Assembly: GCA_030699935.1 (NCBI GenBank)
Contig: JAUYKS010000022.1
Coordinates: 18,970-82,969, forward strand
DNA: 64,000 nt
Direction: 5' to 3'
Source: a bacterium
GTDB lineage: Bacteria > Patescibacteriota > SICC01
The position numbers and the translations under genes were made by a program. Shown here one piece after another: positions 39,037-58,110 of the stretch (position 1 is its first letter; each line of letters starts with the position of its first letter). Below the pieces are notes generated by a model. It saw only the letters and a program-made list of their open reading frames with translations. It was not told the origin of the DNA and did no database searches.

Positions 39037-39041
39037 ATCTC

Positions 39042-39607: not shown

Positions 39608-39622
39608 ATCTTCCTCACTTGC

Positions 39623-40369: not shown

Positions 40370-40639
40370 TTATTTCGTAGGTTGGGGTACTTGTACGGGT
40401 TGCTCGCCGGGCGGGATCTGGGCCGGCGGGACGTTCTGGGCGCCGCCGCCATCGGTCGCGTCCAGCACGGACTCGAGGCCTTGGTTGAGGCCGTAGTCCA
40501 CCACTCCCATGAACGCTCCGAACAGGATCGTCACGATCACGACGACCGTGGTGAGCCGGACCGTCCGGCGCCGCGTGGGCCAGACGACTTTGCTAAGCTC
40601 TACCCGCGCTTCTTTAAGAAACGAAAAAATCTTTCGCAC
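40370..40639 (-). CDS. secE: Preprotein translocase subunit SecE, with a C-terminal Pro/Gln-rich extension
   Basis: 89 aa. The sequence reads FLKEARVELSKVVWPTRRRTVRLTTVVVIVTILFGAFMGVVD. Confidence 0.85.
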   Translation of the reverse strand: MRKIFSFLKEARVELSKVVWPTRRRTVRLTTVVVIVTILFGAFMGVVDYGLNQGLESVLDATDGGGAQNVPPAQIPPGEQPVQVPQPTK

Positions 40640-40706
40640 GGGCTAATCATACCCCATTGTTCCGCGGCTTCGCCAGGGTTTCGGCCGGGGCTGGTACGAT
40701 GTCGGC

Positions 40707-41405: not shown

Positions 41406-41416
41406 CGATGAGTTTT

Positions 41417-42178: not shown

Positions 42179-42207
42179 AAAGTAACTTAGTCACGCAACT
42201 TTTCTTT

Positions 42208-43104: not shown

Positions 43105-43119
43105 CTAGATGGTACCGGA

Positions 43120-43815
43120 CTATGCTTGCTCGAGCAGGAACGAGACCAGGAAACCCAGCGTCGTCGCGAAGGCAACCCAGCGGCCGCCGTCCTCATATGC
43201 CTGCGGCAACATGTTGTCCACCACCAACCCGAGCACCGCTCCGGCGGCAAAAGATTGGATCGCGGCCAGCGTGGCCGGGTTCATGTCTCCCAGCGCCGCC
43301 CCCAGCGGTACGAACCATACCAACCCTGCGGCGACCGCCAACCAGGTAAGGAAGATCCGTTTGCTCGACTCCTTTCCCTGCCGCAAGTCCTCGGATCCCA
43401 CCAGGGCTTCCGGGAAGTTCGAGATCATGATCGCCAGCAAAAGCGGCGCGGAGGCGGTGCCGAGCGCCAAGGTCGTGCCGAGGGCGACGTTCTCGGGGAC
43501 GCCGTCGATCGCGGCGCCGGCCAGCAACAAGGTCCCTCCCCTCCGTCCGCGCTGCCGGACTTCCCGGAAGACCAGTTGGTTGAGCAAGATGTACCCTGCC
43601 GCCCCGAGCAACATCCCGATGGACGCGGCGGCGGCTCCGCCGTATTCGAACGCCGTGCCGAACAGGTCGAAGGTCAGGGCGGCGATGAACGTCCCGGCCG
43701 CGAAGGCCAGGATCGCTGCGGTGGTCCGCTTATGCAGACGTACCCTGGTGCCGATCAACGGAGCGATCACCAAAGGCGCGACCGCCGCGACGCCTAGTAA
43801 TATTGCTTTTTCCAT
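43120..43815 (-). CDS. ZIP-family metal transporter
   Basis: 231 aa and polytopic. The sequences ISNFPEALVGSEDL and HN-like motifs match ZupT/GufA-type ZIP transporters. Confidence 0.8.
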   Translation of the reverse strand: MEKAILLGVAAVAPLVIAPLIGTRVRLHKRTTAAILAFAAGTFIAALTFDLFGTAFEYGGAAAASIGMLLGAAGYILLNQLVFREVRQRGRRGGTLLLAGAAIDGVPENVALGTTLALGTASAPLLLAIMISNFPEALVGSEDLRQGKESSKRIFLTWLAVAAGLVWFVPLGAALGDMNPATLAAIQSFAAGAVLGLVVDNMLPQAYEDGGRWVAFATTLGFLVSFLLEQA

Positions 43816-43820
43816 GCCCG

Positions 43821-44588
43821 CTACTCCGCGATCTGTCCGCCGTCCACGACGAGGATCGCGCCGTTGACGAAGTCGGACTCATCTGCAGCCAGGTAGGTCG
43901 CGGCATAGGCGATGTCGTCCGGCTCGCCGAGCCGCGGGTACGGAATCGCCGCCTTGAACTGCGCGGTGGCCTTGGGATCTTTCAGGAACGGGTCGGTCAT
44001 CTTGGTCTTGATCACGCCGGGCGCGATCGCGTTGACGTTGATCCGCTTGGGCGCATACTCTAACGCCGCTTCCTTGGTCAGCGTCACCACGCCGCCCTTG
44101 GCCGCACAGTACGCCGCGATCTGCGGGAAGCCGATGATGCCGGCGATCGAGGTGATGTTGATCACCTTGCCCTGGCTCTTGTCTTTGCCCTTGCCGGCCT
44201 TTTCCATTTCCGGGATCGCGTACTTCATGCCGAGGAACGTCCCCTTGAGGTCGACCGCCAGCACCTGGTCCCACTGCGCTTCGGTCATCTCCTCCAGCGG
44301 ATGCATCTCGACCACGCCGGCGTTGTTGACGAGGATGTCGAGCTGGCCGAATTTCTTGACCGTCTCGGCGACCATCCGCTTGTTGTCGGCGGCGCTGCTG
44401 ACGTCGGCTTGGATCGCCAGTGCCTTGCCGCCATCCTTCTCGATCTCCTTCACGGTCTCCTCGCAGCTCTCGACGTGATGCCCCGCGCAAACCACGGCGG
44501 CGCCTTCCTTCGCGTACATCTTGGCGATCGCTTTGCCGATGCCGCTGCCGGCTCCGGTGACGATCGCTACTTTGTCTTTCAGTCTCAT
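43821..44588 (-). CDS. SDR-family oxidoreductase (FabG-like)
   Basis: 255 aa. The cofactor motif reads [16 protein letters not shown] is present. The YxxxK motif lies in AYCAAKGG. Confidence 0.9.
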
Positions 44589-44618
44589 TTCAACCTCATG
44601 GTGTATTTCCGTTAGATG

Positions 44619-45242
44619 CTACCGTGCAGATTCTGTGATGTTCTTCACGATCTGTTCGAAGTCCCCCGAGACCTTGTCGTACGCCCGCGCGTCCGTCTGA
44701 AAGTCGAGCGTATACGTGTGGTCGGGAGTCGGAACGACGACATGGAGGTTTTCAAAGACAGCGGCACCCGGCTCGCCTTGCTCGGTATAGCGGATCTTCA
44801 CGACGTCGTATCCGCCAACCTTGGCAATCTCCTGTTTTACGAGCTTGAATCCGACGATCTTCTTTCGATAGGCGGCGATGATCGGCTTAGACAACGTCTT
44901 GATGTCGAAGTCCTTGACGAGCTTGCCTTCGAGCACGGTTACCACCACTCGCGCACTGGGATCGTCCCGTTTGGCCCGCAGGACGAAGCTCGGCGCACGG
45001 AGGTCGTTCTGGAACGTCTGTCGTTGCCATCCCTCGGGAAGCGACAGGTCTTCCCGAACCTGCTGCACGTCGGAAGAAATCGTTACTTGTTCGGGCTGCG
45101 CGACCGAATCGCCACCAGTACCGTCGCGGCCAAACAGCATGAATATGCCGGTCGCCAATAGCAACCCGATCGCCACGGCAACCAGATATCGGAATACCGG
45201 ACTCTGGAAAACGGATGTGGAGTGTGAGTTTGGCATGGTCAA
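44619..45242 (-). CDS. Membrane-anchored hypothetical protein
   Basis: 207 aa. The N-terminal TM reads YLVAVAIGLLLATGIFMLF. The ectodomain is a beta-rich region of about 170 aa. Confidence 0.55.
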   Translation of the reverse strand: MTMPNSHSTSVFQSPVFRYLVAVAIGLLLATGIFMLFGRDGTGGDSVAQPEQVTISSDVQQVREDLSLPEGWQRQTFQNDLRAPSFVLRAKRDDPSARVVVTVLEGKLVKDFDIKTLSKPIIAAYRKKIVGFKLVKQEIAKVGGYDVVKIRYTEQGEPGAAVFENLHVVVPTPDHTYTLDFQTDARAYDKVSGDFEQIVKNITESAR

Positions 45243-45841
45243 TCGAACGGCCTCAGCGTAAGCGAAGAAAAGAAAACCGTAAAGTTTTCCTGATAGTCCG
45301 CCAGCCGATCCCGCGGCGCATCACAAAACGCAAAAGTTGTCGCGGTATCCGTCGTTACCACGAGTTCGGATCGGGCGATGACCTGTTGTTGCTCCTGGTA
45401 GCTGATGTCCATCAGCACTCCCTGGTGATCCACTTCGACCTCGACGGTTTCCGAGCCGATCAGTTTGGCGTCGGGATTATTCCGCCTAATGGCCTTCATC
45501 GTGCCTTCTTCCAGATATTCCGTCGCGACTTGGCCGCCGGTGGTCCGTGGCGTCTGTGAAATATAGCATCCGCTAGAGGTATCGCCGGCCGGCCGATATC
45601 CGTATATGAAGCTCGGGTTCTGGCGGGCCAGTTCGCTGCGCCCAATCGGGACGAACCGCTTGTCGATATCGAAGGAGATGCCAAGTGATTCGTCCTGGAC
45701 ATGGTTGACCGAATCGTCGCGCAGTACCAGGTACAGCACGACGGCCACCACCAACAATCCGGCCACTCCGGCGGTGATCAGTAATCTGGTGCGGATGCGG
45801 TTGCGGTTTCGCTGCTGAGCGGCCATGTCCCCATTGTGCAC
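45239..45841 (-). CDS. Membrane-anchored hypothetical protein (same architecture as the upstream neighbour)
   Basis: 200 aa. A basic N-terminus is followed by the TM LLITAGVAGLLVVAVVLYLV and an ectodomain of about 150 aa. It overlaps its neighbour through an ATGA junction. Confidence 0.55.
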   Translation of the reverse strand: MHNGDMAAQQRNRNRIRTRLLITAGVAGLLVVAVVLYLVLRDDSVNHVQDESLGISFDIDKRFVPIGRSELARQNPSFIYGYRPAGDTSSGCYISQTPRTTGGQVATEYLEEGTMKAIRRNNPDAKLIGSETVEVEVDHQGVLMDISYQEQQQVIARSELVVTTDTATTFAFCDAPRDRLADYQENFTVFFSSLTLRPFD

Positions 45842-45918
45842 AAAAAACCAACCAATACTAAAACTAAAGCACCTCCCGCGAGGGAGGCACCTTAGACTAC
45901 TTTCCGGTGGAGTACGGA

Positions 45919-46845
45919 TTAGTTGTTGAGCTGCTGCCAGTCCGTGCCGTCACAACCGAAGAAGTTGTTCGCGACATCGATCCGCAGGTCGCCCTTGTTG
46001 CTCGCGCTGCAGGTACCGCTGGCGTCCGCGCCGTCTACCAGCGTGGAACCGTGGGCCGGAGCCTGCAAGCTTGTCGCTCCCGAGAAGTCGACGTCGCCGA
46101 TCACGGTAAGGTTCTTACCGCTGGCCAGAGTGAGGCCGGTGCTGGCAATCGTACCCACCAGGGCGTCCGTCTCGGCCGCACCGCCGACGTGGAACTGAAT
46201 CTGGTCCTCAGCCGCCAAACGGATGCGTCCCGTGCCGACATTGCTGTCGACAGCCGTGATCCGGATGTGGTTGGAGCCTTGGAATTCCAAGTCCATATCC
46301 TCATTGGAGCCCCAAATCGCGCGGGTCGTTTTGGCACCCGTGCCGCCGGTATCGTCGAAGACGGCATTGTAGAAGACGCCGGCATACGACTCGGATGTCG
46401 AATCCGCCGTGCCGTCGCCGGTGGTGTCAGACGGACCACGCAGTCGGAACGACGTGGCGTTATCCTTGATCGCCCGAATGACGCCGTTTACGTCGAGACC
46501 AGCCATCGTGAAGCTATCGGTGTTGCGAAGCTCCGAGTCAGAAACGGCGTTGGCGCCGATGTCAATCGAGCCGATGGACTGATCAGAGATTTCCGAAGTG
46601 CCAACCGCGTTGGCCCCGATGTCGATCTTTTGGATCGATTGGTCACGGATCTCCGAAGTACCGACCGCCTGTGCGGCGATATCAATCGATTGGATCGACT
46701 GATTAACGATCTTGGCGCTGTTAACCGTGTTGTTATAAAGGTGGGCTGGGTGGTTAGCGTGGCCATAAGCGGAAGGTACGGCCACGACCGCTGCCGCCGC
46801 CAGACCCAAGCCCACGCTTGCTCCTAGTTTTTTAATACTTTTCAT
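45919..46845 (-). CDS. Secreted protein with a 20-aa tandem-repeat array (tail-fibre/adhesin-like)
   Basis: 308 aa. The signal peptide reads MKSIKKLGASVGLGLAAAAVVAVPSAYG. Three tandem repeats of the form IDIGANAVGTSEI-DQSI-- are encoded by a 60-bp DNA tandem repeat at about 46520-46710. The C-terminus reads FFGCDGTDWQQLNN. Confidence 0.65.
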   Translation of the reverse strand: MKSIKKLGASVGLGLAAAAVVAVPSAYGHANHPAHLYNNTVNSAKIVNQSIQSIDIAAQAVGTSEIRDQSIQKIDIGANAVGTSEISDQSIGSIDIGANAVSDSELRNTDSFTMAGLDVNGVIRAIKDNATSFRLRGPSDTTGDGTADSTSESYAGVFYNAVFDDTGGTGAKTTRAIWGSNEDMDLEFQGSNHIRITAVDSNVGTGRIRLAAEDQIQFHVGGAAETDALVGTIASTGLTLASGKNLTVIGDVDFSGATSLQAPAHGSTLVDGADASGTCSASNKGDLRIDVANNFFGCDGTDWQQLNN

Positions 46846-47041
46846 CTATATATCACCCCCTTCCTGTTGAAATTGTCAGATAAATAAAGCAACTAGGGCA
46901 GCCCAACATCACCACGTTAACCGGCCGTTGCGTCATTCCAATGATCCTGCGTCCGCGCGATTCGATCCGAGTGACATTACTTTTTCGAACTGAATCTTAC
47001 CCCACTCGATGGTTAGTAGCTTGATGAGTGAATCATACGTC

Positions 47042-47091
47042 ACATTTGTTTATGTTGTAAACAAATGTATAGCCATACGGTTAGCGTATGG
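47042..47091 (+). promoter_or_regulatory. Two inverted-repeat operator candidates upstream of, and overlapping, the XRE regulator start. The first is ACATTTGTTTA-N5-TAAACAAATGT (47042-47068). The second is CCATACG-N5-CGTATGG (47073-47091).
   Basis: Both inverted repeats were verified by reverse complement. The second includes the ATG of the XRE gene. Both lie in an AT-rich 240-bp divergent intergenic region. Confidence 0.55.
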
Positions 47092-47312
47092 CTATCGATG
47101 AAGAGCGGTTCTTCAATGAATTAAGTCGGCGCATAGCGAAAGCTCGCAAGAGCCAATCGCTTTCCCAGGAGGCCCTTGAAGCCAAGTCTAACGTAGACAG
47201 GGTCGCGATAGCCTACATCGAGCAAGGGCACCGCAAGCCGACCGTCACGACCGTCTATCGGCTGTCAAAGGGGTTAGGCATCAAGCTCGAGAACCTTTTC
47301 AAAGGCTACTGA
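47088..47312 (+). CDS. XRE-family HTH transcriptional regulator
   Basis: 74 aa. The Cro/C1-type HTH reads LSQEALEAKSNVDRVAIAYIEQGHRKPTVTTVYRLSKGLGIKLENLF. Confidence 0.8.
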   Translation: MAIDEERFFNELSRRIAKARKSQSLSQEALEAKSNVDRVAIAYIEQGHRKPTVTTVYRLSKGLGIKLENLFKGY

Positions 47313-47707
47313 AGATTATGTTGCAGGGGCGTCACCACGACCTCGCGTTCGCGCGGTCCGCTGAACTCGAACAGGACGACCCGCTGCCACGTCCCGAGCT
47401 GGAGTTTGCCCCGGGCGACCGGCACCGTCACCGACGGCCCGACCAGCGAAGCGAGGATGTGGTCCGGCATATGCGACGGATCGTGCGGGTGGCGGAAATC
47501 GAGCCGCGGCACCATCTGTGTCAGCGCGTCGAGGTAATCAAGGTCGGTGCCGCCCGGGTCGAGATCGGCGGTACTGAGCCCGACCGTCGTGTGCTTCACG
47601 AACGCGTGCACCGTGCCGGCATGACCTTTGGGAATTTCTGCAGCCAACCGATCGGTAATGTCGATCACTTGCTTCGATTCCTGACTGGAAATCTTGAATA
47701 AACTCAT
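47306..47707 (-). CDS. YjbQ/UPF0047 family protein (secondary thiamin-phosphate synthase-like)
   Basis: The N-terminus MSLFKISSQESKQVIDITD and the motifs HTTVGL and DFRHPHD are typical of the family. The start is chosen at the internal ATG; the listed ORF extends to 47797. Confidence 0.8.
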   Translation of the reverse strand: MSLFKISSQESKQVIDITDRLAAEIPKGHAGTVHAFVKHTTVGLSTADLDPGGTDLDYLDALTQMVPRLDFRHPHDPSHMPDHILASLVGPSVTVPVARGKLQLGTWQRVVLFEFSGPREREVVVTPLQHNLQ

Positions 47708-47824
47708 TGGAGAAGATTGCATCGGTAGTATACGACTTACCCCCGCTTCCTTTTTGGAGATTTGCACGAATCGCCGGCAGCGGCTGGCGAGTACCATGCG
47801 GACACTTAAGCCAAGGGGGCGTAC

Positions 47825-48217
47825 ATGTTCAAAGACTCAAAAGCGTTCAGCAGTTTCTCGGTAAACGACCTGGCCAAAGCCGAGGAATTTTACGGGAAGA
47901 CGCTCGGCCTAAACGTCAGCAAAGACGACAAGATGGGAATTCTCAACCTGAACTTCCCGGGCGGTGGACAGACGGTGATTTATCCCAAGGGCGACCACGC
48001 CCCGGCGACGTTTACGGTGCTCAACTTTCCGGTCGGTGACATCGAAAAAACGATCGATGAGCTCGCCGCCAAGGGCGTGCAGCTCGAGCATTACGACGAG
48101 GGTCCGGCTAAGACTAATCAGAAAGGGATTGCCGGCGGCGACGAGGGGTTCGGCCCGAAAATCGCCTGGTTCAAAGACCCGGCCGGGAATATCCTGGCGG
48201 TAATGACCGAAGGCTGA
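47825..48217 (+). CDS. VOC (glyoxalase/bleomycin-resistance) family protein
   Basis: 130 aa with paired beta-alpha-beta-beta-beta modules. The sequence includes [16 protein letters not shown]. Confidence 0.8.
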
Positions 48218-48235
48218 TTCAAATCGCGGGATGAC

Positions 48236-48874
48236 ATGCGATTCCGGGACCGAATCGACGCCGGAAAGCAGCTCAGCGCAAAGCTCACGCAGAAGCTGAA
48301 AAGTTACGCCGGGCAGCCGGTGGTGGTCTACGCGCTGCCGCGCGGCGGTGTGCCGGTGGCGGCGGAAGTGGCGCGGGCACTCAGCGCGCCGCTCGACTTG
48401 GTGATCCCGCGGAAGGTCGGCCACCCGCTGTCGCCGGAGTATGCGATCGCGGCGGTCACCGAAGCCGGCAAGGCAATCGAAAACGAGTCGGAAGTGGCGA
48501 TGATCGATCCGGTCTGGTACCGAAGGGCGGTTCGGAACGAACGCGCCGAGGCGAAGCGCCGGCGCGAGGCGTATCTCGGGAAACGGAAGCCGGTGTCGCC
48601 GCGAGGCAAGGTGGCGATTCTGGTCGATGACGGGATCGCGACCAGCCTGACGATGCGCGCCGCGGTCGCGGATTTGCAGACCCGCGGTCCGAACGCGATC
48701 GTAATCGCGGTGCCGGTCGCGCCGGCCGATGCGGTCGCCAATCTCGCCGCCGCGGTTCAGGACGTAGTGGTCTGCGAGCAGCCGATCCAATTCCTCGGTT
48801 CAATCGGCGCATACTATGACAAATTCGACCAGACTACGGACAAGGAAGTCGTTCGGTTGCTTACCCCAACTTGA
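48236..48874 (+). CDS. Phosphoribosyltransferase-family protein
   Basis: 212 aa. The PRPP-binding loop reads VAILVDDGIATSLTMRAA. The N-terminus FRDRIDAGKQL...VVYALPRGGVPVA is typical. Confidence 0.8.
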   Translation: MRFRDRIDAGKQLSAKLTQKLKSYAGQPVVVYALPRGGVPVAAEVARALSAPLDLVIPRKVGHPLSPEYAIAAVTEAGKAIENESEVAMIDPVWYRRAVRNERAEAKRRREAYLGKRKPVSPRGKVAILVDDGIATSLTMRAAVADLQTRGPNAIVIAVPVAPADAVANLAAAVQDVVVCEQPIQFLGSIGAYYDKFDQTTDKEVVRLLTPT

Positions 48875-50081
48875 CCGTCTCGCCTTCGAGCAATTCCTTG
48901 GCATCGTTGACGCCGTCCTTCTGTATTACCAGATCGACCTCGACCCCGTCGACTTGCGCCAATTCCGCGATCGCGTTCTGCAAACCGATTTGGCCGCTTT
49001 TGATCCGCTGCTGGGTCTCGCGAAGTTCCTCCTCGAGCTGCCAGCGCGCCCGCTCCAACGGTGACGGCTCCTCGATCAACGACATGAAGTTTTCGAGTGA
49101 TTTCTGCTCTGTCGGATCTTCTTCAAACACCGACCGGAACCCTTTGACCCGCACCCGGATTTCCTGCCTGGCCGCAGTCCGGTGTTGCTTCCGCAAGTAG
49201 CAAGTCGCCAACCGCAAGAGTTCGGTCCTGACTAACTCATCCGCGTTGTCCGGATCCACAACCTTGGCATACTTTTTGACGGGCGTGATCGCCCGGCCGA
49301 CTTCCTTGGCCACGCTGAACGGCAAAAGCTGATCATCCGTGAGTTCCCGAATTTCAACCGGCAGGTCAACGAAATTCAGAGCATCGCGTAACGCATCCAC
49401 GCCGATACAATGTTTGCTCGCGAATTCTTTCCGGGACATTCGCGGCACCGTGCCTTTCGCTTCCTCCTCTTTCTGCCAAAACCAGGCCTCGGCCATTAAT
49501 ATCGCGGTGTTTTGTGGCGCGGGCGCGGCGTGAAGATTCTCTTCGGTCTGGCGCGTAACAATTTCGTCGACCGTCGTGACTCCGTCAAGAATGCGCGCCC
49601 ACTCGTAGTAATTGCTCGGTTTACAACCGATGCTTTCGGCATCGGCCTGGCAAGCCTTAAGACGTGAATGTCCGGCAACCAGCAGCGCGAACATTTCGCC
49701 GGACTCGCCGGACTCGTCCACTGGTACGAACTCATCGATACGGGCCCCGCTTCGCCAGGCCCGGTTCGTGAAGTCGATGTAGTCTTGGATTTGCTCCCGC
49801 GTCAGGATCGTGACCAGCAAGGCGTTGTCCAAGCTGCGTCGGGAGATGGAAGCGTTGAGTTCCCGCTGGACCGGATTGGACCCGTTCCGATGTTGGGCGC
49901 AAATGTTGATTTTGTCGACCGGTAGCTGGACGACATGATAATCGTCCGGGCGGTAGATGAACTCCGGTGCTTCCTCGGCCGAATCGTCGGCACTTTCGTG
50001 TAAACCCTCACCGCCGTTGAAGTCGAAATCATAAAAATCACCGATTCCTTCCCCCTGATCGACTTGTCTGTCCTGTTTCAT
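48861..50081 (-). CDS. ParB/Srx-like nuclease-domain protein in a lower-GC segment
   Basis: 406 aa. After an acidic N-terminus, VVQLPVDKINICAQHRNGSNPVQRELNASISRRSLDNALLVTI fits the ParB N-terminal domain pattern. It lies adjacent to tRNA-Trp. Confidence 0.45.
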   Translation of the reverse strand: MKQDRQVDQGEGIGDFYDFDFNGGEGLHESADDSAEEAPEFIYRPDDYHVVQLPVDKINICAQHRNGSNPVQRELNASISRRSLDNALLVTILTREQIQDYIDFTNRAWRSGARIDEFVPVDESGESGEMFALLVAGHSRLKACQADAESIGCKPSNYYEWARILDGVTTVDEIVTRQTEENLHAAPAPQNTAILMAEAWFWQKEEEAKGTVPRMSRKEFASKHCIGVDALRDALNFVDLPVEIRELTDDQLLPFSVAKEVGRAITPVKKYAKVVDPDNADELVRTELLRLATCYLRKQHRTAARQEIRVRVKGFRSVFEEDPTEQKSLENFMSLIEEPSPLERARWQLEEELRETQQRIKSGQIGLQNAIAELAQVDGVEVDLVIQKDGVNDAKELLEGETVKLG

Positions 50082-50186
50082 CTGGTTGTTGGTATCCGCG
50101 GTTTACCTGTTCTGAATATAACAGGATGCGAACCCACCGGTTTTCCCGATGTGGATACGTGGGTTTTATCTTGTTGTCTGCCTTTG

Positions 50187-50260
50187 CAGGGGCGGAGGGA
50201 TTCGAACCCCCGACACCGGGTTTTGGAGACCCGTGCTCTGCCAGACTGAGCTACGCCCCT
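50187..50260 (-). tRNA. tRNA-Trp (anticodon CCA)
   Basis: Manual fold of AGGGGCG-TA-GCTC-AGTCTGGCA-GAGC-A-CGGGT-CTCCAAA-ACCCG-GTGTC-GGGGG-TTCGAAT-CCCTC-CGCCCCT-G. CCA is not encoded. Confidence 0.9.
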
Positions 50261-50374: not shown

Positions 50375-50536
50375 CTACTTCGTCTCTTTGTGCAGCATGT
50401 GCTTCTTGCAGCGCTTGCAGAACTTCTTGATCTCCAAGCGCTCCTGCGTGTTCCGCCGGTTCTTGGTGGTGTGATAGTTGTGCTCCTTGCACTCCGTGCA
50501 TTCGAGCGTGATCACCGGTCTGATGTCCTTAGCCAT
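50375..50536 (-). CDS. rpmG: 50S ribosomal protein L33
   Basis: Not in the ORF track because it is shorter than 60 aa. The reverse translation reads [53 protein letters not shown], a 53-aa protein with a Cys4 zinc ribbon. Confidence 0.9.
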
Positions 50537-50596: not shown

Positions 50597-50670
50597 GCCG
50601 CCTTAGCTCAGCTGGCCAGAGCAACTGTTTTGTAAACAGTAGGTCCTCGGTTCGAATCCGAGAGGCGGCT
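50597..50670 (+). tRNA. tRNA-Thr (anticodon TGT)
   Basis: Manual fold of GCCGCCT-TA-GCTC-AGCTGGCCA-GAGC-A-ACTGT-TTTGTAA-ACAGT-AGGTC-CTCGG-TTCGAAT-CCGAG-AGGCGGC-T. Confidence 0.9.
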
Positions 50671-50673
50671 CAT

Positions 50674-51201
50674 TCAGCCGTAGAATTGCTCCGGATCAAT
50701 ACCGGCTTCTCTCATCTTTTCGGCAGCTTCTTCAAGCAGGGGATTCAGTCGATCCCATACGTGGTACTCAACTGCCATCAACCCAAGCGGATGTCCCGTA
50801 GCTTCGTCCAGGAGATCGGCGGCTGCGCCGCTTCGATCTACCTTGAGTAAACGAACGTACTCACGGTTCAGTGGCCCTACTTGATCCTTCTCAGCCAGAG
50901 CCTCTTTAATCTGTCCAACGAACTCTTCATTATCATCCAAGAACTTCACCCACACATCGCCAAGATCTTCAGCCTTCCCTAAGTAAACTTCGTAGAATTC
51001 GTTCCTTTCGCCGCCCACTTCTAGATGCCGCAGTTGCGAAAACAACAAATAGAAGTTGTTTCCGAACTGGATGGTACGCTCCCGGGTTTCCACTCGCGGA
51101 TCATCCATTGGAACTTTAGGAGCGTTCGCCGCTAACTCCCGCATTTCCGCGGAGGGTTCCAGCGGCTCGGCTCCGTCATGACCAGATTCAGGCGCATGCA
51201 T
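50674..51201 (-). CDS. Hypothetical protein in a lower-GC segment within the tRNA cluster
   Basis: 175 aa. No recognisable family. GC is lower than the flanking tRNAs and genes. Confidence 0.5.
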   Translation of the reverse strand: MHAPESGHDGAEPLEPSAEMRELAANAPKVPMDDPRVETRERTIQFGNNFYLLFSQLRHLEVGGERNEFYEVYLGKAEDLGDVWVKFLDDNEEFVGQIKEALAEKDQVGPLNREYVRLLKVDRSGAAADLLDEATGHPLGLMAVEYHVWDRLNPLLEEAAEKMREAGIDPEQFYG

Positions 51202-51243
51202 AGCTAGTAACTTTACCGTAATAAAGCCATTTTTTCAAGATTG

Positions 51244-51326
51244 TGCTGGGAGAGGGATTCGAACCCCCGAAGACATAAGTCGCCTGGTTTACAGCCAGGT
51301 GCGTTTGGCCGCTTCGCTATCCCAGC
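51244..51326 (-). tRNA. tRNA-Tyr (anticodon GTA), long variable arm
   Basis: Manual fold of GCTGGGA-TA-GCGAAGCGGCCAAACGC-A-CCTGG-CTGTAAA-CCAGG-CGACTTATGTCTTC-GGGGG-TTCGAAT-CCCTC-TCCCAGC-A. Confidence 0.9.
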
Positions 51327-51346
51327 GTGTTGTTAATACTACCCTG

Positions 51347-51420
51347 AGCCGAGAGGCGGATTCGAACCGCCGGCCTCCCGCTTACCATGCGGACGCTCTA
51401 ACCAACTGAGCTACCTCGGC
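51347..51420 (-). tRNA. tRNA-Thr (anticodon GGT)
   Basis: Manual fold of GCCGAGG-TA-GCTC-AGTTGGTTA-GAGC-G-TCCGC-ATGGTAA-GCGGG-AGGCC-GGCGG-TTCGAAT-CCGCC-TCTCGGC-T. Confidence 0.9.
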
Positions 51421-51992
51421 AATTGCTTCAGAATCCATTGTTGCAGATTACGGTTGAAATAGTACACACTCAGAACTCCGTATAAGCACCTTCTTTTGTA
51501 AGTGCCGGTGGATTGGGATGGCGAAACACGCGGGGGATAGAACTGCTCAGGCTTCATTCCTAGTTCATTAACCCAATATGAAAGCGCTACGTCTGGATCA
51601 AGGTCATTGAAAATCTGGATATTGAAGCATAAGTCGTCCGGGTTAACACCACAGATCCTAGTGAGAAACTTGAGAAATACCCGAATCAAGTAGGGGTCAG
51701 TATTTCCTAAGCGAACTTGGTTTTTGCTAGCCTTGTTTCCTTCACCCCAATACAGCCCGACCCCTAAACCATACAATCGCCACTCTTCCTTGGTCCGTGG
51801 CATCTTGACAGTAAATGGGTCTCCGTTCGGGTTATTTTTAAGATAAATCGCGTCGCTGATGGAACGCCGCTTGATGCCATACTTGTCCATCCAGTAGACG
51901 ACCTTATGTTCCGAGCATCCCAAAGCCAGCGATATATCGCGCATCGACGCCCCTCCTCTGTAGCGCTCCCGAAGGTCCTTTTCGGGAAGCAT
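51411..51992 (-). CDS. HTH + LAGLIDADG-like (homing-endonuclease-like) protein. It lies in a lower-GC segment, and its 3' end overlaps tRNA-Thr(GGT) by 10 nt.
   Basis: 193 aa. The N-terminal HTH reads RGGASMRDISLALGCSEHKVVYWMDKYGI. LYGLGVGLYWGEGNK...VRLGNTDPYLIRVFLKFL fits the LAGLIDADG helix pattern with Glu substituted for Asp. GC is about 50% versus about 65% for neighbours. Confidence 0.4.
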   Translation of the reverse strand: MLPEKDLRERYRGGASMRDISLALGCSEHKVVYWMDKYGIKRRSISDAIYLKNNPNGDPFTVKMPRTKEEWRLYGLGVGLYWGEGNKASKNQVRLGNTDPYLIRVFLKFLTRICGVNPDDLCFNIQIFNDLDPDVALSYWVNELGMKPEQFYPPRVSPSQSTGTYKRRCLYGVLSVYYFNRNLQQWILKQLPR

Positions 51993-52036
51993 ACAAGCAT
52001 TATATCACAAGCAGGCTAGTTTTGCGTGCGAGTGTT

Positions 52037-52339
52037 TTACTCGATCCCAAACCGCGCGCTCAACGCCCGGTACTCCTCGCCGTATCTGCCGGCCAGCGCG
52101 TTACAAAGATCCATCCGGCAACGCACGACTTCCCGCAAGGTTTCGTCCTCCGGTATGGATTCCGGATCAAGGCCCGCTGTTCTCTGATCGATATATTTTT
52201 CAAGAATGCGCCGCTGCATCTCCAGCTCTTCTCGCGATTCCGGCAAATGCCCTTCCTGAGCCATCACGAATTCCGCGGCCCGCTCTAACTTCTGGGGATC
52301 CAAATCCCCAAGCACGGACTCGAAGTATCGCTCCGACAT
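52037..52339 (-). CDS. Hypothetical protein
   Basis: 100 aa, helical. It is coupled to the upstream TPR gene; the stop/start junction is at 52339. Confidence 0.45.
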   Translation of the reverse strand: MSERYFESVLGDLDPQKLERAAEFVMAQEGHLPESREELEMQRRILEKYIDQRTAGLDPESIPEDETLREVVRCRMDLCNALAGRYGEEYRALSARFGIE

Positions 52340-53226
52340 TACTTCTTCAGGACTTTGTTGAGCTGGGTCCGGCCCTTTTTGTCGGACAGCAGCCGTTCGA
52401 CCTCGGTCAGCCGGTTGAGGACGAAGAAGTTCCGCGGGTCGAGCTTCTTGGCGGCCTCGAACGCCTCCTTGGCGTCGTCGAGCTGGCCGAGCTGCTGGTA
52501 GACCTGGCCGATCCGCGTCATGTACTTGATGTTCTTCGGCTGCTGGACGAGGATCTTCAGGCAGGCTTCCTCGCAGCGCTCGTATTCGCGGTCCCGCCAG
52601 GCCTGGTCGGCCTCGGAGGAAAGTTGCTCGAACGTGCCGGACTGGTGCCGGGTGGCGTCGACGTAAGCCGGCTGGCTCGGCCGGGCCGGGACGCTGGTGA
52701 CCCGTTCGCCGGGCGCGCGGACCGCGGCCGGTTGGGCCGACCGGGCCGGCGTTTCGTCCGGCTGGGACGGCGCGGCTTCGGCTCCGATTTCGGCTCCGGT
52801 GTCGGAATCGACGTCGGTATCGGTGCCGGCAGCGTCGCCTTGCGCCGCGTCGCCCGCGAAGATCGGACTGTCGTCTTCTTCGTCCCCTCCGCCGGTGTCC
52901 GCCACCGTCGGCTCGTCGGAAATCGGTTTCTTCTTGAACAGGCCGCCGGCCATCTCGGTCACGCGGCCCACGGTCCGGTCGGCCACCCGGCCGGCGTTGC
53001 GCGCGTGTTCTTTGACGCTTTCGGCCGTACTGCTCGCGGGACTGGTCGCCGCGTCAGCCGCATCGGATTTCGCAGTTCCGGACTGGGCCGGGGTCGGTTC
53101 CGCCGTCTCGGACTTCGGGACGTCGACCTTGTCCACGCCGAACAGCCGCGCCTCGACATCAGGCCAGCGCCGGGCGGCATACACGATGCCGGCGACGAAG
53201 GCGATGAGGATTAGGGCGGTAAGCAT
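52339..53226 (-). CDS. Membrane-anchored TPR-repeat protein
   Basis: 295 aa. The N-terminal TM reads LTALILIAFVAGIVYAA. A low-complexity acidic linker follows. The C-terminal TPR repeats read YERCEEACLKILVQQPKNIKYMTRIGQVYQQLGQLDDAKEAFEAAKKLDP. Confidence 0.65.
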   Translation of the reverse strand: MLTALILIAFVAGIVYAARRWPDVEARLFGVDKVDVPKSETAEPTPAQSGTAKSDAADAATSPASSTAESVKEHARNAGRVADRTVGRVTEMAGGLFKKKPISDEPTVADTGGGDEEDDSPIFAGDAAQGDAAGTDTDVDSDTGAEIGAEAAPSQPDETPARSAQPAAVRAPGERVTSVPARPSQPAYVDATRHQSGTFEQLSSEADQAWRDREYERCEEACLKILVQQPKNIKYMTRIGQVYQQLGQLDDAKEAFEAAKKLDPRNFFVLNRLTEVERLLSDKKGRTQLNKVLKK

Positions 53227-54201
53227 CTAAGTGCCGAGGTTGAGGAATAATTGCTCCAGAAGAAGCTGAGTGTTGGGATTGTAGCGCAGCTTCCTGCGGG
53301 CAGCAAATAAACGTACCAGACTATCTATGCGTTTGGCTAGTGGTACGGCCTCGGCCAGGCGTTCCGCGGTATGCCCCTGTCCCGCTCCGCCTCGGGCTCC
53401 GCCCGGGGTCCCGCCTCGGAGCGAGTCACGATAGAGGCCGATCCAAGTGTCCAAGCGTTCCGGCAGCGCGTCCGGCTCGTCCGCCAAACGTTTGGCCAGC
53501 GCCAGACGCTGCGGCACCGGCTCCCTGACGATATCCAGCAACGCCGATTCGGTTTCCCGGATCGCGGCGTCCGCCGCCGGATCGTCCGCCAGCCGGATCG
53601 CCGTGCCGGGCCGTTGCCCGGCCCGTGCCCCGATCCCCTCGGCATCCTCGACCCCCCGCTGCGCCAGCGCCTTGGTCAGCTCACCGGCCGGGACCGGTCC
53701 CAGCGGCACTCGTTGGCAGCGCGAGACCGTCGTCGGCAGGAGGCTCGCCGGAGATTGCGCCGTCAGGATCAGGATCGCGCGGCGCGGCGGCTCCTCGAGC
53801 AGCTTGAGCAGCGCATTCTGGGCGGGTATGCCGAGCCGGTGGGCGTCCGGGATCAGGCCGACCTGGTGACGCGCGGAATGCGGAGCCAACGTGAGCGCTC
53901 GGGACAAATCCCGGACTTGGGCGATCGTCAGGTTTCCTTCGTCGGGCAGCCGATGGTAGTCCGGATGGTTCCCCGCTTCCCTCAAAAGGCAGGAGGTGCA
54001 GGTTCCGCACGGACCGTCCGGTTTCTCGCAGAGCAGCGCCGCCGCGAACCGTTCGGACAGCGTGTGCTTGCCGATGCCGGACGGACCGGTCAGGAGATAT
54101 GCATGACCGCCGCCGCCTTGCCCGGCCGCTCGTTTGGACAACCGCGCCGCCGCCGCCGCGTTCCCGATGAACCCGTTCCCGATCAATTCCTTAGCTTCCA
54201 T
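53227..54201 (-). CDS. holB: DNA polymerase III delta-prime subunit
   Basis: 324 aa. The AAA+ region has HAYLLTGPSGIGKHTL and a zinc-module CxxC, plus ILILTAQS and SRCQ. Confidence 0.85.
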   Translation of the reverse strand: MEAKELIGNGFIGNAAAAARLSKRAAGQGGGGHAYLLTGPSGIGKHTLSERFAAALLCEKPDGPCGTCTSCLLREAGNHPDYHRLPDEGNLTIAQVRDLSRALTLAPHSARHQVGLIPDAHRLGIPAQNALLKLLEEPPRRAILILTAQSPASLLPTTVSRCQRVPLGPVPAGELTKALAQRGVEDAEGIGARAGQRPGTAIRLADDPAADAAIRETESALLDIVREPVPQRLALAKRLADEPDALPERLDTWIGLYRDSLRGGTPGGARGGAGQGHTAERLAEAVPLAKRIDSLVRLFAARRKLRYNPNTQLLLEQLFLNLGT

Positions 54202-57098: not shown

Positions 57099-58110
57099 TG
57101 TATGGTCGGCCCGCGTGAAAATGAAAAAGGCGCCGAACTAAGGCCACCCGTAATGAATTAACTTGGTGCTTGCCGGCGCCGATTTCCTAAAAAAGGTTTG
57201 GGGCTCCCCGAGCGATCCGGGAGCCCCGGCCCGTGCCATCTTGGGATGTGCCGGGCAGCAGGCTTGGCGCCACCGGTCTGAGTCTGACCTAGTCGAGCAT
57301 TTGTTTTGATTTTTTCTCGCAGGGAGACTCAGAACGGTGAAGCTAAGGGTTGCTGCCCGGCACGGGTAGGGACAAACGTGAATGGTCTTGAAACGTTGTG
57401 TTTCGGTTTTGGGAGGGTTGAGGGCGCACCGTGATGCGGCCTCTTTGGTTTTTGTTTGTCCGTTCGTCCGCTGTGGGTGGGTGGGATCGGCACCCGCTCG
57501 AACAGCAGGGCGGCGAGCACCTTCTGGCTAGCGATATGCGGTCATGAAGGTGTTGTTTCTTTTTGATTTTCCTTCGCAGAGGACGCTGCGTCTTAAGGGA
57601 AAGTGCTCGACTCCCCGCCGTTCGGCTGCGGTTCCGGCTTGGAACCGTGCGTGGCATGGGCCTTATTTTGAATGTGCTTGGGGGACTAAAAACCCCGATG
57701 TCGCGGGCCTTTTGCGGCCACCGCTCAATCGGGATTAAGTCAACGTAGCACCGTGAACAAGACTTGTCAACACTTATGCATAATATTTGTTCAATCAGGC
57801 ACGGTAAGGCATGGGCCAGGCACAAATAAACATGATTTAGGCAAAAACAGTTACGAAGAAAGCAGCGGATTTGGGTTTGAAACCCGCTGCTTGTGTGTCG
57901 GTCCATACCTTTGAATCCATACCCTTGGATCATCTTCTGTAAAGCCTCGTCAAATGCCTGACGGCACCTCCCCTGACGAGACCTCGGACGGATGGCGGGG
58001 AGCCGGATGCGGCGCATCCGGAGATAGATGGATCACCTCCTCAGTCGTCGACGCCGATCAGGACGGCAGGCGCAGGCAAATTACATCACCACCTTTCGAC
58101 AACTTGGAGG
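57099..58110. other. About 1.0 kb of non-coding, highly structured sequence upstream of lgt. It is a candidate for one or more structured ncRNAs or leader elements.
   Basis: No credible ORF is present; the listed 57343..58017(-) ORF is Arg/Cys/Ser-rich garbage. Several hairpins are perfect: GGGGCTCCC-N10-GGGAGCCCC at 57200-57227; a 13-bp long-range pairing of GTGCCGGGCAGCA at 57248-57260 with TGCTGCCCGGCAC at 57351-57363; CGGTTCCGGCTTGGAACCG; and GGGGGACTAAAAACCCC. A tandem-duplicated T-rich motif TTTTGATTTTyCyTCGCAGrGGA sits at about 57303 and 57561. Confidence 0.5.
57868..57896 (-). terminator. Intrinsic terminator-like hairpin
   Basis: The minus strand reads GCAGCGG-GTTTCAAACCCAAAT-CCGCTGC followed by TTTCTTCGTAACTGTTTTTGCC. 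Confidence 0.5.

What the first reader, a model, noticed from the sequence alone, without database searches (positions are those of the whole stretch)
50674..51992. Low-GC ORFs interleaved with the tRNA-Thr/Tyr/Thr cluster, including a LAGLIDADG-like gene overlapping tRNA-Thr(GGT)
In most bacteria this tRNA cluster (Thr-Tyr-(Gly)-Thr) directly precedes tuf and rpmG. Here tuf is absent. A low-GC hypothetical (50674-51201) sits between the tRNAs. A 193-aa HTH plus LAGLIDADG-like ORF (51411-51992, about 50% GC) terminates 10 nt inside tRNA-Thr(GGT). The second tRNA-Thr (TGT) is on the opposite strand. Homing-endonuclease-like genes tend to invade tRNA and rRNA loci. Together with the HNH-repeat fragment at 63814+ and the ParB-like gene, this points to repeated selfish-element activity around tRNAs.
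Basis: partly seen in the sequence, partly recalled or inferred. Interest (0 to 1): 0.55.

Follow-up and report, generated by a model that had tools for sequence, protein, structure and literature searches.

The report
Selfish-looking gene abutting tRNA-Thr gene
The 193-aa gene belongs to a large, unnamed family from ultrasmall (CPR/Patescibacteria) bacteria that always sits directly in front of the tRNA-Thr(GGU) gene, uses three tRNA bases as its stop codon, and behaves like a homing-endonuclease-type selfish gene, although its LAGLIDADG identity could not be proven.

Summary
ORF193 (51411-51992, minus) ends 10 nt inside an intact tRNA-Thr(GGU). ORF193 and ORF175 have GC3 of 0.57 and 0.53 against a host median of 0.81. 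tRNA-Thr(UGU) lies on the other strand, and tuf is absent.

ORF193 is not a one-off invasion. More than 1,200 homologs (~50% identity) occur across Patescibacteria. In 81 of 81 evaluable loci the gene lies 5' of tRNA-Thr(GGU), and in 47 the overlap is exactly 10 nt (stop = tRNA U8-A9-G10). A sister family abuts tRNA-Tyr in the same way.

The gene is patchy. CPR-type loci without it exist, one relative carries an internally deleted copy, and dN/dS is 0.04-0.15. [quoted passage not shown]

LAGLIDADG membership is unproven. Pfam LAGLIDADG_3 and I-DmoI matches are sub-threshold but share one register (E84 aligns with the catalytic E117). Foldseek on two high-confidence models finds no LAGLIDADG fold.

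Absence of tuf is normal for this lineage.

Best reading (~0.5): a free-standing, homing-endonuclease-like gene targeted to the tRNA's 5' boundary, long resident in this lineage. ORF175 is an unrelated rare accessory gene.

The parts
51411..51992 (-). ORF193: HTH plus 'YWGEG' alpha/beta-domain protein, member of a Patescibacteria-wide family that abuts tRNA-Thr(GGU)
   Evidence: ORF list; 1220 homologs; alignment A1 with 29 invariant columns; dN/dS 0.04-0.15; AF2 model pLDDT 89.6
51828..51992 (-). N-terminal helix-turn-helix DNA-binding module (about residues 1-55)
   Evidence: HTH_23/HTH_28 sub-threshold hits in 18/32 and 12/32 family members; PHROG HNH-endonuclease families, E 2e-4; haloviral HNH endonuclease N-termini, E 2e-3; PDB HTH hits with profile A3
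51414..51809 (-). C-terminal alpha/beta domain (residues 62-193) with LAGLIDADG-like helix; fold not matched to any solved structure
   Evidence: Domain model pLDDT 92.9, pTM 0.86; Foldseek PDB best E 4e-3, OmpA-like/IspF, no LAGLIDADG entry in top 50; LAGLIDADG_3 sub-threshold, residues 80-117 to profile 9-48; hhalign to I-DmoI 109-144, E 0.005
51738..51758 (-). Motif G-L-Y-W-G-E-G (residues 79-85); W82, E84, G85 invariant in 83 sequences; E84 aligns with the catalytic E117 of I-DmoI
51411..51420 (-). 10-nt overlap of the ORF193 3' end with the tRNA-Thr(GGU) 5' end; the stop codon TAG is tRNA positions 8-10
   Evidence: same offset in 47 loci
51999..52007 (-). Extended -10-like box TGATATAAT ending 6 nt before the ORF193 ATG (suggests own promoter and a leaderless or near-leaderless mRNA)
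   Evidence: sequence; TAnnnT box 5-10 nt upstream of the start in 42/54 family loci against 9% at random positions; function is inferred
51346..51420 (-). tRNA-Thr(GGU), intact and intron-less
   Evidence: ARAGORN; Rfam tRNA 66.3 bits
51243..51326 (-). tRNA-Tyr(GUA)
50674..51201 (-). ORF175: rare accessory gene of unknown function, GC3 0.53, inserted between tRNA-Tyr and tRNA-Thr(UGU); absent from the closest relative L081
   Evidence: only 6 homologs; homologs lie in variable regions beside AbiEii, XRE-HTH and HNH genes; no Pfam/NCBIfam/PHROG hit; L081 gene order
50597..50671 (+). tRNA-Thr(UGU), opposite strand, convergent with ORF175 (2-nt gap)
50375..50536 (-). rpmG (ribosomal protein L33), the usual downstream neighbour of tRNA-Thr(GGU) in this lineage
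   Evidence: Pfam Ribosomal_L33 E 5e-23; NCBIfam; found in 52/82 loci
50186..50260 (-). tRNA-Trp(CCA)
52037..52339 (-). ORF100: uncharacterised 100-aa ORF between the TPR gene and ORF193; absent at this position in L081

Best explanation
ORF193 is an intact copy of a free-standing, homing-endonuclease-like selfish gene specific to the tRNA-Thr(GGU) locus of Patescibacteria. The protein joins an N-terminal HTH, of the kind found on phage homing endonucleases, to an alpha/beta domain. That domain begins with a LAGLIDADG-like helix ending in an invariant Gly-Glu-Gly. The cassette (own -10 box, leaderless-type start, ~580-nt ORF) sits exactly at the 5' boundary of the tRNA. The ORF has no stop of its own and terminates on U8-A9-G10 of the tRNA, leaving the tRNA intact. 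Inferred mechanism: the protein recognises and cuts the conserved tRNA-Thr(GGU) region in genomes that lack the cassette, and repair from a carrier copies the cassette in. [quoted passage not shown] After insertion the gene is inherited mostly vertically, stays under strong purifying selection, and is sometimes lost or decays. Shown here: family, position, overlap, patchiness, decay, selection, and intron structure and linkage. Inferred: nuclease activity, cleavage site, homing, and co-transcription with the tRNA. ORF175 and ORF100 are separate accessory insertions in the same rearrangement-prone tRNA cluster.
For: Fixed site: tRNA-Thr(GGU) lies within 116 nt downstream of the ORF in all 81 evaluable loci. 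The overlap is exactly 10 nt in 47, other overlaps occur in 11 or more, and a spacer of 60 nt or less in 15 or more. Upstream neighbours vary. Empty sites: at least 8 CPR-type loci (tRNA-Thr(GGU) directly followed by rpmG) lack the ORF and have tRNA-Tyr or tRNA-Thr(UGU) 2-197 nt upstream (2-45 nt where the tRNAs are tightly packed). L089 (ORF-) is syntenic with ORF+ Saccharibacteria. Decay: L150 keeps both flanks, the tRNA and the intron, but about 607 nt of the ORF is replaced by about 110 nt, leaving the C-terminal remnant '...NTKLRDTIVNAITELQNNKLPT*'. Duplicated tRNA 5'-end remnants lie at the ORF end in L030, L033, L042 and L079. Paralogous family B (198 or more proteins, YWAEG motif) abuts tRNA-Tyr: -10 in L148, and -6, +4 and +5 in L205, L206 and L204. 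Many superfamily C-termini are translated tRNA 5' halves. Intron linkage: 42 of 83 ORF+ loci carry a 179-221-nt group I intron at position 36/37. In an ORF-blind metagenome sample, 4 of 5 intron loci have the ORF or its remnant, against 1 of 51 intron-less loci. Nuclease-like features: W82, E84 and G85 are invariant in 83 sequences. The LAGLIDADG_3 and I-DmoI alignments share one register, with E84 on the catalytic E117. BFVD structural neighbours include phage LAGLIDADG and endonuclease proteins (E 3e-3 to 0.07). The HTH is shared with phage HNH endonucleases. The ORF is 7 GC points below its host across 60 loci. The L035 ORF is discordant with its flanking host genes.
Against: No significant nuclease or LAGLIDADG profile hit. 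Foldseek on two high-confidence models finds no LAGLIDADG fold. hhalign to I-CreI is negative, and the probability for I-DmoI is only 5-7%. Long vertical residence: ORF GC tracks host GC (r = 0.90), the tree shows coherent Saccharibacteria, Peribacteria and Moranbacteria clades, ORF identity correlates with flanking genes (r about 0.4-0.6), and no pair shows clearly recent transfer. Conservation (mean 54% identity) equals or exceeds RpsB, Tsf and HolB, which is unusual for a purely selfish gene. If the target were the intron insertion site, L038 and L073 (ORF+, intron-less, with the same exon sequence as intron-bearing alleles) would cut themselves. The 80 genome loci are the best tblastn hits and so are biased towards intact copies. 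The ORF-blind sample holds only 5 intron loci.
Confidence: 0.5

Rival explanations
1. Domesticated DNA-binding protein, analogous to WhiA (a LAGLIDADG-derived transcription factor with an HTH). ORF193 would no longer be mobile and would act as a site-specific regulator or organiser of the tRNA-Thr(GGU)-rpmG-tRNA-Trp transcription unit that it is co-transcribed with.
For: Strong purifying selection (dN/dS 0.04-0.15). Conservation equal to or above ribosomal protein S2 and EF-Ts in the same loci. GC ameliorated to the host (r = 0.90). Clade-coherent tree. Clear HTH. No nuclease fold recognised. Conserved own promoter-like box and read-through into the tRNA.
Against: Absent from many CPR-type loci with near-identical tRNAs. 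An internally deleted copy in L150 coexists with an intact tRNA and intron. A paralogous family sits at a second tRNA with the same junction. The invariant acidic residue lies in the position of the LAGLIDADG catalytic residue, whereas WhiA has lost these residues (my own knowledge, not tested here).
Confidence: 0.2
2. Splicing cofactor (maturase) for the group I intron of tRNA-Thr(GGU), encoded outside the intron. Copies next to intron-less tRNAs, as in this window, would be leftovers.
For: In the ORF-blind sample the intron occurs almost only where the ORF or its remnant is present. 42 of 83 carriers have the intron. LAGLIDADG maturases are a known class (established knowledge).
Against: At least 31 of 73 classified carrier loci, including the window and its relatives L081 and L082, have no intron yet keep an intact, selected ORF. 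L150 keeps the intron with a destroyed ORF. Family B abuts an intron-less tRNA-Tyr. The intron has a complete, compact P1-P9 core.
Confidence: 0.1
3. An RNA-directed enzyme acting on the adjacent pre-tRNA (5' processing or modification), encoded next to its substrate.
For: Strict linkage to tRNA 5' ends in two families. Very weak Foldseek similarity to RNase P protein subunits 6agb_C and 6k0a_I (E 0.02-0.07, prob 0.2-0.6).
Against: The distribution is patchy while the tRNAs are universal. The structural hits are far from significant (TM 0.18-0.30). The HTH is a typical DNA-binding type.
Confidence: 0.05

Closest known systems
Free-standing homing endonucleases that act with ORF-less group I introns (F-CphI beside cyanophage psbA; T4 MobE beside nrdB): 'collaborative' or trans homing (PMC3984707, PMC2790892, PMC6083498)
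   Same: [quoted passage not shown] Gene and intron co-occur. Carrier genomes hold either the intron or a diverged allele.
   Different: Those cases are phage genes with HNH or Endo VII-type nucleases and demonstrated cleavage. Here the setting is a bacterial chromosome, the host gene is a tRNA, the ORF fuses to the tRNA's 5' end, the fold is unassigned, cleavage is untested, and two carriers (L038, L073) have an intron-less allele identical to the presumed homing site.
LAGLIDADG homing endonucleases (I-DmoI 2VS7/1B24, I-CreI; LAGLIDADG enzymes in rRNA insertions of CPR bacteria, cited in PMC11809585 and PMC8172020)
   Same: A motif helix ending in Gly-Glu-Gly, followed by strand, strand and helix elements, aligns with the second LAGLIDADG motif of I-DmoI (E84 on E117). 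The protein is small and single-motif with an extra DNA-binding module. It occurs in the same phylum that is rich in LAGLIDADG genes.
   Different: All profile matches are below threshold. Foldseek finds no LAGLIDADG structure. A helix (residues 133-144) and a long loop lie between the third and fourth strands. The gene is not inside an intron or intein.
[quoted passage not shown]
   Same: A mobile-element nuclease associated with a bacterial tRNA gene that carries a group I intron in the anticodon loop.
   Different: That enzyme is encoded inside the intron. ORF193 is upstream of the 5' exon, and the introns here are ORF-less.
WhiA/DUF199 (domesticated LAGLIDADG scaffold plus HTH transcription factor; own knowledge)
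   Same: It combines a LAGLIDADG-type domain with an HTH and shows strong conservation within a bacterial lineage.
   Different: WhiA has two degenerate LAGLIDADG domains, a C-terminal HTH and near-universal presence in its lineages. ORF193 has one domain, an N-terminal HTH and an invariant acidic residue, and is patchy. No WhiA Pfam hit was found.
Bacterial tRNA group I introns (cyanobacterial tRNA-Leu(UAA) and tRNA-fMet, Azoarcus tRNA-Ile; PMC3984707); group I introns in CPR tRNAs noted in passing (PMC8172020)
   Same: The introns in related loci are small (179-221 nt), ORF-less and sit in the anticodon loop. They have U.G at the 5' splice site, a terminal G and a P1-P9 core.
   Different: The host is tRNA-Thr(GGU) and the insertion is between positions 36 and 37. 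Rfam release 15 does not detect them. They are linked to an external ORF. The window's own tRNA has no intron.

Membership tests
LAGLIDADG homing endonuclease | Significant match to a LAGLIDADG sequence profile (Pfam LAGLIDADG_1/2/3, WhiA-type) | tested here: not met
   ORF193 itself has no hit. 6 of 32 family members hit PF14528 at E 0.025 or weaker, 12-15 bits against a cut-off of 22.5. Profiles A1 and A3 find no LAGLIDADG chain in the PDB.
LAGLIDADG homing endonuclease | LAGLIDADG helix ending in a conserved acidic residue (metal ligand) followed by a beta-hairpin | tested here: inconclusive
   GLGxGLYWGEG with W82, E84 and G85 invariant in 83 sequences. hhalign places residues 76-112 on I-DmoI 109-144 with E84 on E117, E 0.005-0.007 but probability 5-7% (I-DmoI sequence verified). 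The Pfam sub-threshold matches use the same register. I-CreI comparison is negative.
LAGLIDADG homing endonuclease | alpha-beta-beta-alpha-beta-beta-alpha fold similar to solved LAGLIDADG structures | tested here: not met
LAGLIDADG homing endonuclease | Site-specific double-strand DNA cleavage | not testable with these tools
   Requires biochemistry.
Free-standing homing endonuclease gene (behavioural class) | Fixed insertion site next to a conserved target, with variable sequence on the far flank | tested here: met
   81 of 81 evaluable loci lie 5' of tRNA-Thr(GGU), 47 with exactly 10 nt of overlap. Upstream neighbours differ between loci.
Free-standing homing endonuclease gene (behavioural class) | Presence/absence polymorphism among related genomes, and degenerate copies | tested here: met
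   At least 8 CPR-type loci lack the ORF; L089 is syntenic with carriers; L150 has an internally deleted copy.
Free-standing homing endonuclease gene (behavioural class) | Horizontal spread (gene tree discordant with the host tree) | tested here: inconclusive
   The tree is star-like but clade-coherent. Correlation with flanking genes is r = 0.4-0.6, with L035 discordant and no clear recent transfer. GC tracks the host.
Group I intron (in related loci only; none in the window) | U.G pair at the 5' splice site, terminal G, and P1-P9 with a P3/P7 pseudoknot supported by covariation | tested here: met
   In 40 introns, 93.1% of cells are paired against 33-46% for slid controls, 31 pairs change on both sides, and 0 of 500 shuffles reach the observed value. 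U12.G32 is invariant and all introns end in G.
Group I intron (in related loci only; none in the window) | Match to Rfam Intron_gpI | tested here: not met
   No hit at the gathering threshold in 16 loci, nor at E 1 or better in L051 4450-4880.
Universal housekeeping gene of the lineage | Present in essentially all members, never decayed | tested here: not met
   ORF-less CPR-type loci and the deleted copy in L150. 314 of 185,579 species genomes carry it, as a pattern-limited lower bound.

The most novel reading that the evidence does not exclude
A previously unrecognised superfamily of endonuclease-like proteins, roughly 200-300 clusters at 50% identity and confined to Patescibacteria, homes to the 5' boundary of specific tRNA genes: family A to tRNA-Thr(GGU), family B to tRNA-Tyr(GUA). 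Members borrow the tRNA's U8-A9-G10 as their stop codon. [quoted passage not shown] That would be collaborative homing operating in cellular chromosomes across a whole phylum, possibly with a catalytic domain so diverged from LAGLIDADG that it amounts to a new nuclease family.
Probability: 0.3. Interest if true: 0.75.

Novelty: new variant of a known kind. Interest (0 to 1): 0.6.

Why it matters
If ORF193 is an active endonuclease, it would be a chromosomal, phylum-wide example of a free-standing homing gene that parks at the 5' edge of a tRNA gene and carries an ORF-less intron with it. So far that arrangement has been shown only in a few phages.

It would also help explain why CPR genomes, despite being tiny, are unusually rich in introns and homing genes. 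It would give a compact HTH-plus-nuclease scaffold with a natural tRNA-gene target. It would flag a class of tRNA-Thr genes that standard tRNA finders and Rfam miss, which affects tRNA-complement and completeness estimates for CPR genomes.

If the protein turns out to be a domesticated regulator, it would be a second WhiA-like case of endonuclease domestication.

For this window specifically, the result is more modest: an intact, long-resident family member next to a normal tRNA, plus unrelated accessory ORFs.

Tried and rejected
**Direct annotation**
- Pfam, NCBIfam, PHROGs and PDB phmmer on ORF193 gave no family, only HTH-level hits.
- PDB searches with profiles A1 and A3 returned only HTH proteins.

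**Structure**
- Foldseek against the PDB with the full-length and the domain-only models gave no significant match. The OmpA-like, IspF and RNase P subunit hits have TM 0.41 or lower and were set aside as generic alpha/beta sandwiches.
- hhalign to I-CreI and I-SceI was negative or weak.

**Rfam**
- The tRNA insert in related loci gave no hit, so the group I assignment rests on my own pairing model and covariation counts.

**'Recent foreign DNA' reading of the low GC**
- Rejected as the main explanation. Across 60 loci the ORF's GC follows the host with a constant deficit of about 7 points, although the window's GC3 deficit (0.25) is at the large end.

**'tuf should be here'**
- Rejected.

**'ParB-like' neighbour as supporting evidence**
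- No profile support.
- The HNH fragment at 63814+ runs off the window and was not evaluated.

**Chance ORF**
- Rejected on dN/dS and more than 1,200 homologs.

**Maturase as the sole function**
- Disfavoured, because many carriers are intron-less and L150 keeps the intron without the ORF.

**Search for clear recent HGT pairs**
- None found.

**Promoter and terminator scan**
- Not above shuffle expectation.
Full report
**1. What is in the window**

On the minus strand the gene order is as follows:

| Feature | Coordinates |
|---|---|
| holB-like | 53227-54201 |
| TPR protein | 52339-53226 |
| ORF100 | 52037-52339 |
| ORF193 | 51411-51992 |
| tRNA-Thr(GGU) | 51346-51420 |
| tRNA-Tyr(GUA) | 51243-51326 |
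| ORF175 | 50674-51201 |
| tRNA-Thr(UGU), plus strand | 50597-50671 |
| rpmG | 50375-50536 |
| tRNA-Trp | 50186-50260 |
| 406-aa ORF | 48861-50081 |

- ORF193 ends ...TTG CCG AGG TAG. The last 10 nt are tRNA positions 1-10, so the stop codon is U8-A9-G10 of the tRNA.
- The window has 62% GC and a median GC3 of 0.81 for long ORFs. ORF193 has GC 0.479 and GC3 0.567. ORF175 has GC 0.525 and GC3 0.528.
- All four tRNAs score 60-70 bits against the Rfam tRNA model.

**2. ORF193 belongs to a large, unannotated family**

- It has no Pfam, NCBIfam or PDB sequence hit of its own.
- A database search returned 1,220 homologs. These are mostly ~194 aa and about 50% identical, and all are 'hypothetical'. 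They come from Saccharibacteria, Paceibacteria/Parcubacteria, Peribacteria, Daviesbacteria and other Patescibacteria.
- A pattern-limited scan of species-representative genomes found 314 carriers. I analysed 80 of them, plus two close relatives of the window: L081 (73% identity) and L082 (64%).
- An identical ORF175 protein places the window in an NCBI MAG labelled 'bacterium'.
- Shared upstream genes (rluD-like, holB, TPR) place the window with Saccharibacteria-type loci.
- The protein is under strong purifying selection. dN/dS is 0.04-0.15 in unsaturated pairs, and W82, E84, G85, W140, G172 and N180 are invariant in 83 sequences.
- Its mean pairwise identity (0.54) equals or exceeds that of RpsB (0.38), Tsf (0.52) and HolB (0.31) encoded in the same loci.

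**3. The position is the striking feature**

- In every evaluable locus (81 of 81) the ORF is followed by tRNA-Thr(GGU).
- The regex count gives exactly 10 nt of overlap in 47 loci, other overlaps in 11, a spacer of 60 nt or less in 15, and 116 nt in one. In the 'other overlap' cases a frame shift makes the ORF read further into, or right through, the tRNA. ARAGORN resolves the remaining loci in the same way.
- The conserved C-terminal 'LP[RMLK]*' is simply tRNA positions 2-10 translated.
- Upstream neighbours vary: tRNA-Thr(UGU) and tRNA-Tyr on either strand, tRNA-Leu, -Phe or -Glu, or protein genes.
- Several loci keep a decayed copy of the tRNA's first 10-12 nt at the ORF end, then a short spacer, then the real tRNA (L030, L033, L042, L079).
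- A TAnnnT box ends 5-10 nt before the start codon in 42 of 54 loci, against 9% at random positions. In the window it is TGATATAAT at 51999-52007. I infer that the cassette brings its own promoter, makes a leaderless-type mRNA and reads into the tRNA. No promoter-like site separates ORF and tRNA. RNase P cleavage would then remove the stop codon from the mRNA; this too is inference.

**4. The gene is not universal and it decays**

I scanned metagenome contigs with a tRNA-Thr(GGU) exon pattern that is blind to the ORF and analysed the hits.

- Fifty evaluable loci had neither the ORF nor an intron. Many of these are non-CPR.
- At least eight have the CPR-type order, with tRNA-Thr(GGU) followed directly by rpmG. 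In them tRNA-Tyr or tRNA-Thr(UGU) lies upstream, 2-45 nt away where the tRNAs are tightly packed.
- L089 lacks the ORF yet is syntenic with ORF-bearing Saccharibacteria.
- L150 shares both flanks, the tRNA and the intron with the ORF-bearing L091. About 607 nt of the ORF is replaced by about 110 nt, leaving the remnant '...NTKLRDTIVNAITELQNNKLPT*'.

The gene is therefore an insertion relative to the packed Thr-Tyr-Thr tRNA cluster, and it is dispensable.

**5. A sister family does the same at another tRNA**

- L148 carries a 29%-identical paralog whose stop codon is again U8-A9-G10, this time of tRNA-Tyr.
- Its family has at least 198 proteins and a 'YWAEG' motif.
- In three of four further contexts it lies -6, +4 or +5 nt from tRNA-Tyr.
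- A profile search of 1.84 billion representatives found 310 clusters at E 1e-30 or better.
- Many C-termini are recognisable translations of tRNA 5' halves. Examples are '...AQW*' from GCTCAGTGGTAG, and tails that stop at the tRNA-Tyr anticodon loop CTGTAA.

**6. Link to a group I intron (in related loci, not in the window)**

- In 42 of 83 ORF-bearing loci ARAGORN misses tRNA-Thr(GGU). The cause is an insertion of 179-221 nt between positions 36 and 37.
- Rfam does not recognise the insert.
- A P1-P9 model with a P3/P7 pseudoknot fits 40 aligned copies. The exon U pairs with an invariant G, P4 is ACGGU/ACCGU, P7 is GACUG/CAGUC, the J8/7-P7 stretch AAGAUACAGUCUA is conserved, and every copy ends in G.
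- On that model 93.1% of cells are paired, against 33-46% for slid controls. Thirty-one pairs change on both sides, and 0 of 500 shuffles reach the observed values.
- The intron carries no ORF.
- Intron status flips between close ORF relatives (L053/L073, L039/L063).
- In the ORF-blind sample, 4 of 5 intron loci carry the ORF or its remnant. The fifth, L115, has a duplicated 36-nt 5' exon that ends at the intron site. Only 1 of 51 intron-less loci has the ORF. Phylogeny confounds this contrast and the numbers are small.
- Group I introns in CPR tRNAs have been mentioned only in passing in the literature (PMC8172020). I found no paper linking them to an external ORF.

**7. Is it a LAGLIDADG enzyme?**

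This remains unproven.

*For:*
- The helix ending GLYWGEG.
- Consistent sub-threshold Pfam LAGLIDADG_3 matches that place residues 80-117 on profile positions 9-48.
- hhalign of the family against I-DmoI (sequence verified) puts residues 76-112 on I-DmoI 109-144, with E84 on the catalytic E117, at E 0.005-0.007 but only 5-7% probability.
- Weak BFVD neighbours include phage LAGLIDADG and endonuclease proteins.
- The N-terminal HTH matches phage and haloviral HNH endonuclease N-termini.

*Against:*
- No significant profile hit anywhere.
- I-CreI and I-SceI comparisons are negative or weak.
- Foldseek against the PDB with two confident models (pLDDT 89.6 and 92.9) returns only generic alpha/beta sandwiches at E 4e-3 or weaker, with no LAGLIDADG entry in the top 50.

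**8. Vertical or horizontal?**

- Across 60 loci the ORF's GC follows host GC (r = 0.90) with a constant deficit of about 7 points.
- The NJ tree is star-like, but Saccharibacteria, Peribacteria and Moranbacteria copies group together.
- ORF identity correlates moderately with flanking genes (r = 0.4-0.6). One locus, L035, is discordant, and no pair shows obviously recent transfer.
- The window's relatives L081 and L082 carry the gene in the same TPR-ORF-tRNA-Thr(GGU) setting.

In this lineage the gene is therefore an old resident, not a fresh arrival.

**9. Interpretation**

- The combination of features fits a free-standing homing-endonuclease-type gene best. Those features are a fixed site at a highly conserved target, patchy presence, decay, a paralog at a second tRNA, a hitch-hiking ORF-less intron, a phage-endonuclease-like HTH, and an invariant acidic residue in a LAGLIDADG-like motif.
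- The closest precedents are F-CphI beside psbA and MobE beside nrdB (PMC3984707, PMC2790892, PMC6083498).
- The cleavage site is unknown.
- Two carriers, L038 and L073, have intron-less alleles identical to intron-bearing exons. This argues against simple targeting of the intron insertion site. The insertion point at the tRNA's 5' boundary is the alternative.
- The high conservation and vertical signal keep a domesticated-regulator reading alive (about 0.2).
- A maturase reading (about 0.1) is weakened by the many intron-less carriers and by L150.

**10. The other elements of the finding**

- ORF175 has only six homologs (34-62% identity plus one identical) and no domain hit. Its homologs lie in variable regions beside AbiEii, XRE-HTH, HNH and NUDIX genes. 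It is absent from L081.
- In L081 tRNA-Thr(UGU) sits upstream of the ORF, and rpmG directly follows tRNA-Tyr. ORF175 and ORF100 are thus lineage-specific accessory insertions in a cluster that has also been rearranged.
- tuf is absent from the window, from all 82 ORF-bearing loci and from all 80 metagenomic tRNA-Thr(GGU) loci, whereas rpmG commonly follows. Its absence carries no signal.
- NusG and L11 lie about 10 kb further along the same strand.
- The 'ParB-like' label for the 406-aa ORF has no profile support.

**Verdict**

The object is a new variant of a known kind: a free-standing homing-type gene, here fused to the 5' end of a tRNA gene and spread across a phylum. Its nuclease family membership is unresolved.

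Noticed in passing
related loci, e.g. L051:4564-4757, L011:3362-3574, L044:1549-1747 (not in the window): [quoted passage not shown] ARAGORN then misses the tRNA, and Rfam 15 does not detect the intron. A P1-P9 model is strongly supported by covariation.
   Followed up: yes
L148 (metagenome contig Ga0210057_1003180), L204:2501-3109, L205:2501-3118, L206:2501-3121: A sister family (about 205 aa, YWAEG motif, 25-30% identity to ORF193, 198 or more members) sits immediately 5' of tRNA-Tyr(GUA). In L148 its stop codon is again tRNA U8-A9-G10.
   Followed up: partly
window 51999-52007 (minus strand): An extended -10-like TGATATAAT ends 6 nt before the ORF193 ATG. A similar TAnnnT box is present in 42 of 54 family loci against 9% at random positions, suggesting a leaderless-type transcript that reads into the tRNA.
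   Followed up: partly
L150:706-1208 versus L091:6-1007: A relative retains both flanks, the tRNA-Thr(GGU) and its intron, but the ORF is internally deleted (about 607 nt replaced by about 110 nt). This is direct evidence that the gene is dispensable and decays.
   Followed up: yes
L115:1436-1471 and 1597-1870: A 36-nt copy of the tRNA-Thr(GGU) 5' exon, ending exactly at the intron insertion site, lies 161 nt upstream of the real intron-bearing tRNA. It may be the footprint of a break or repair event at that site.
   Followed up: no
L036, about 4540-4670: Downstream of the ORF, short hairpin elements built from the tRNA acceptor sequence (GCCAATGTATCGGACC...CATTGGC) occur twice before the real tRNA. 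They look like degenerate tRNA-derived repeats.
   Followed up: no
window 52037-52339 (minus strand): ORF100, a 100-aa acidic ORF with no family hit, overlaps the TPR gene's stop by 1 nt. It occupies the position where the close relative L081 has tRNA-Thr(UGU).
   Followed up: partly
Its GC3 of 0.70 is below the host median.
   Followed up: partly
window 38617-40353 and 40400-48800: NusG (39832-40353) and L11 (38617-39036) lie about 10 kb downstream of rpmG and tRNA-Trp on the same strand. The interval holds several ORFs, some with low GC3 and no Pfam hit (for example 41417-42178, GC3 0.47), so the usual rpmG-tRNA-Trp-secE-nusG neighbourhood appears to have been split by inserted genes.
   Followed up: no
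window 3347-4048 and 57343-58017 (minus strand): Two further ORFs have atypically low GC3 (0.45 and 0.58). The first has only a weak SUFU-like hit and the second has none. They are possibly additional accessory or foreign genes.
   Followed up: no
representative proteins P0247, P0250, P0263, P0392 and others: Proteins of 500-1,100 aa contain 7-15 tandem copies of an HTH module similar to the ORF193 N-terminus. They inflate the low-stringency hit counts and were not examined further.
   Followed up: no
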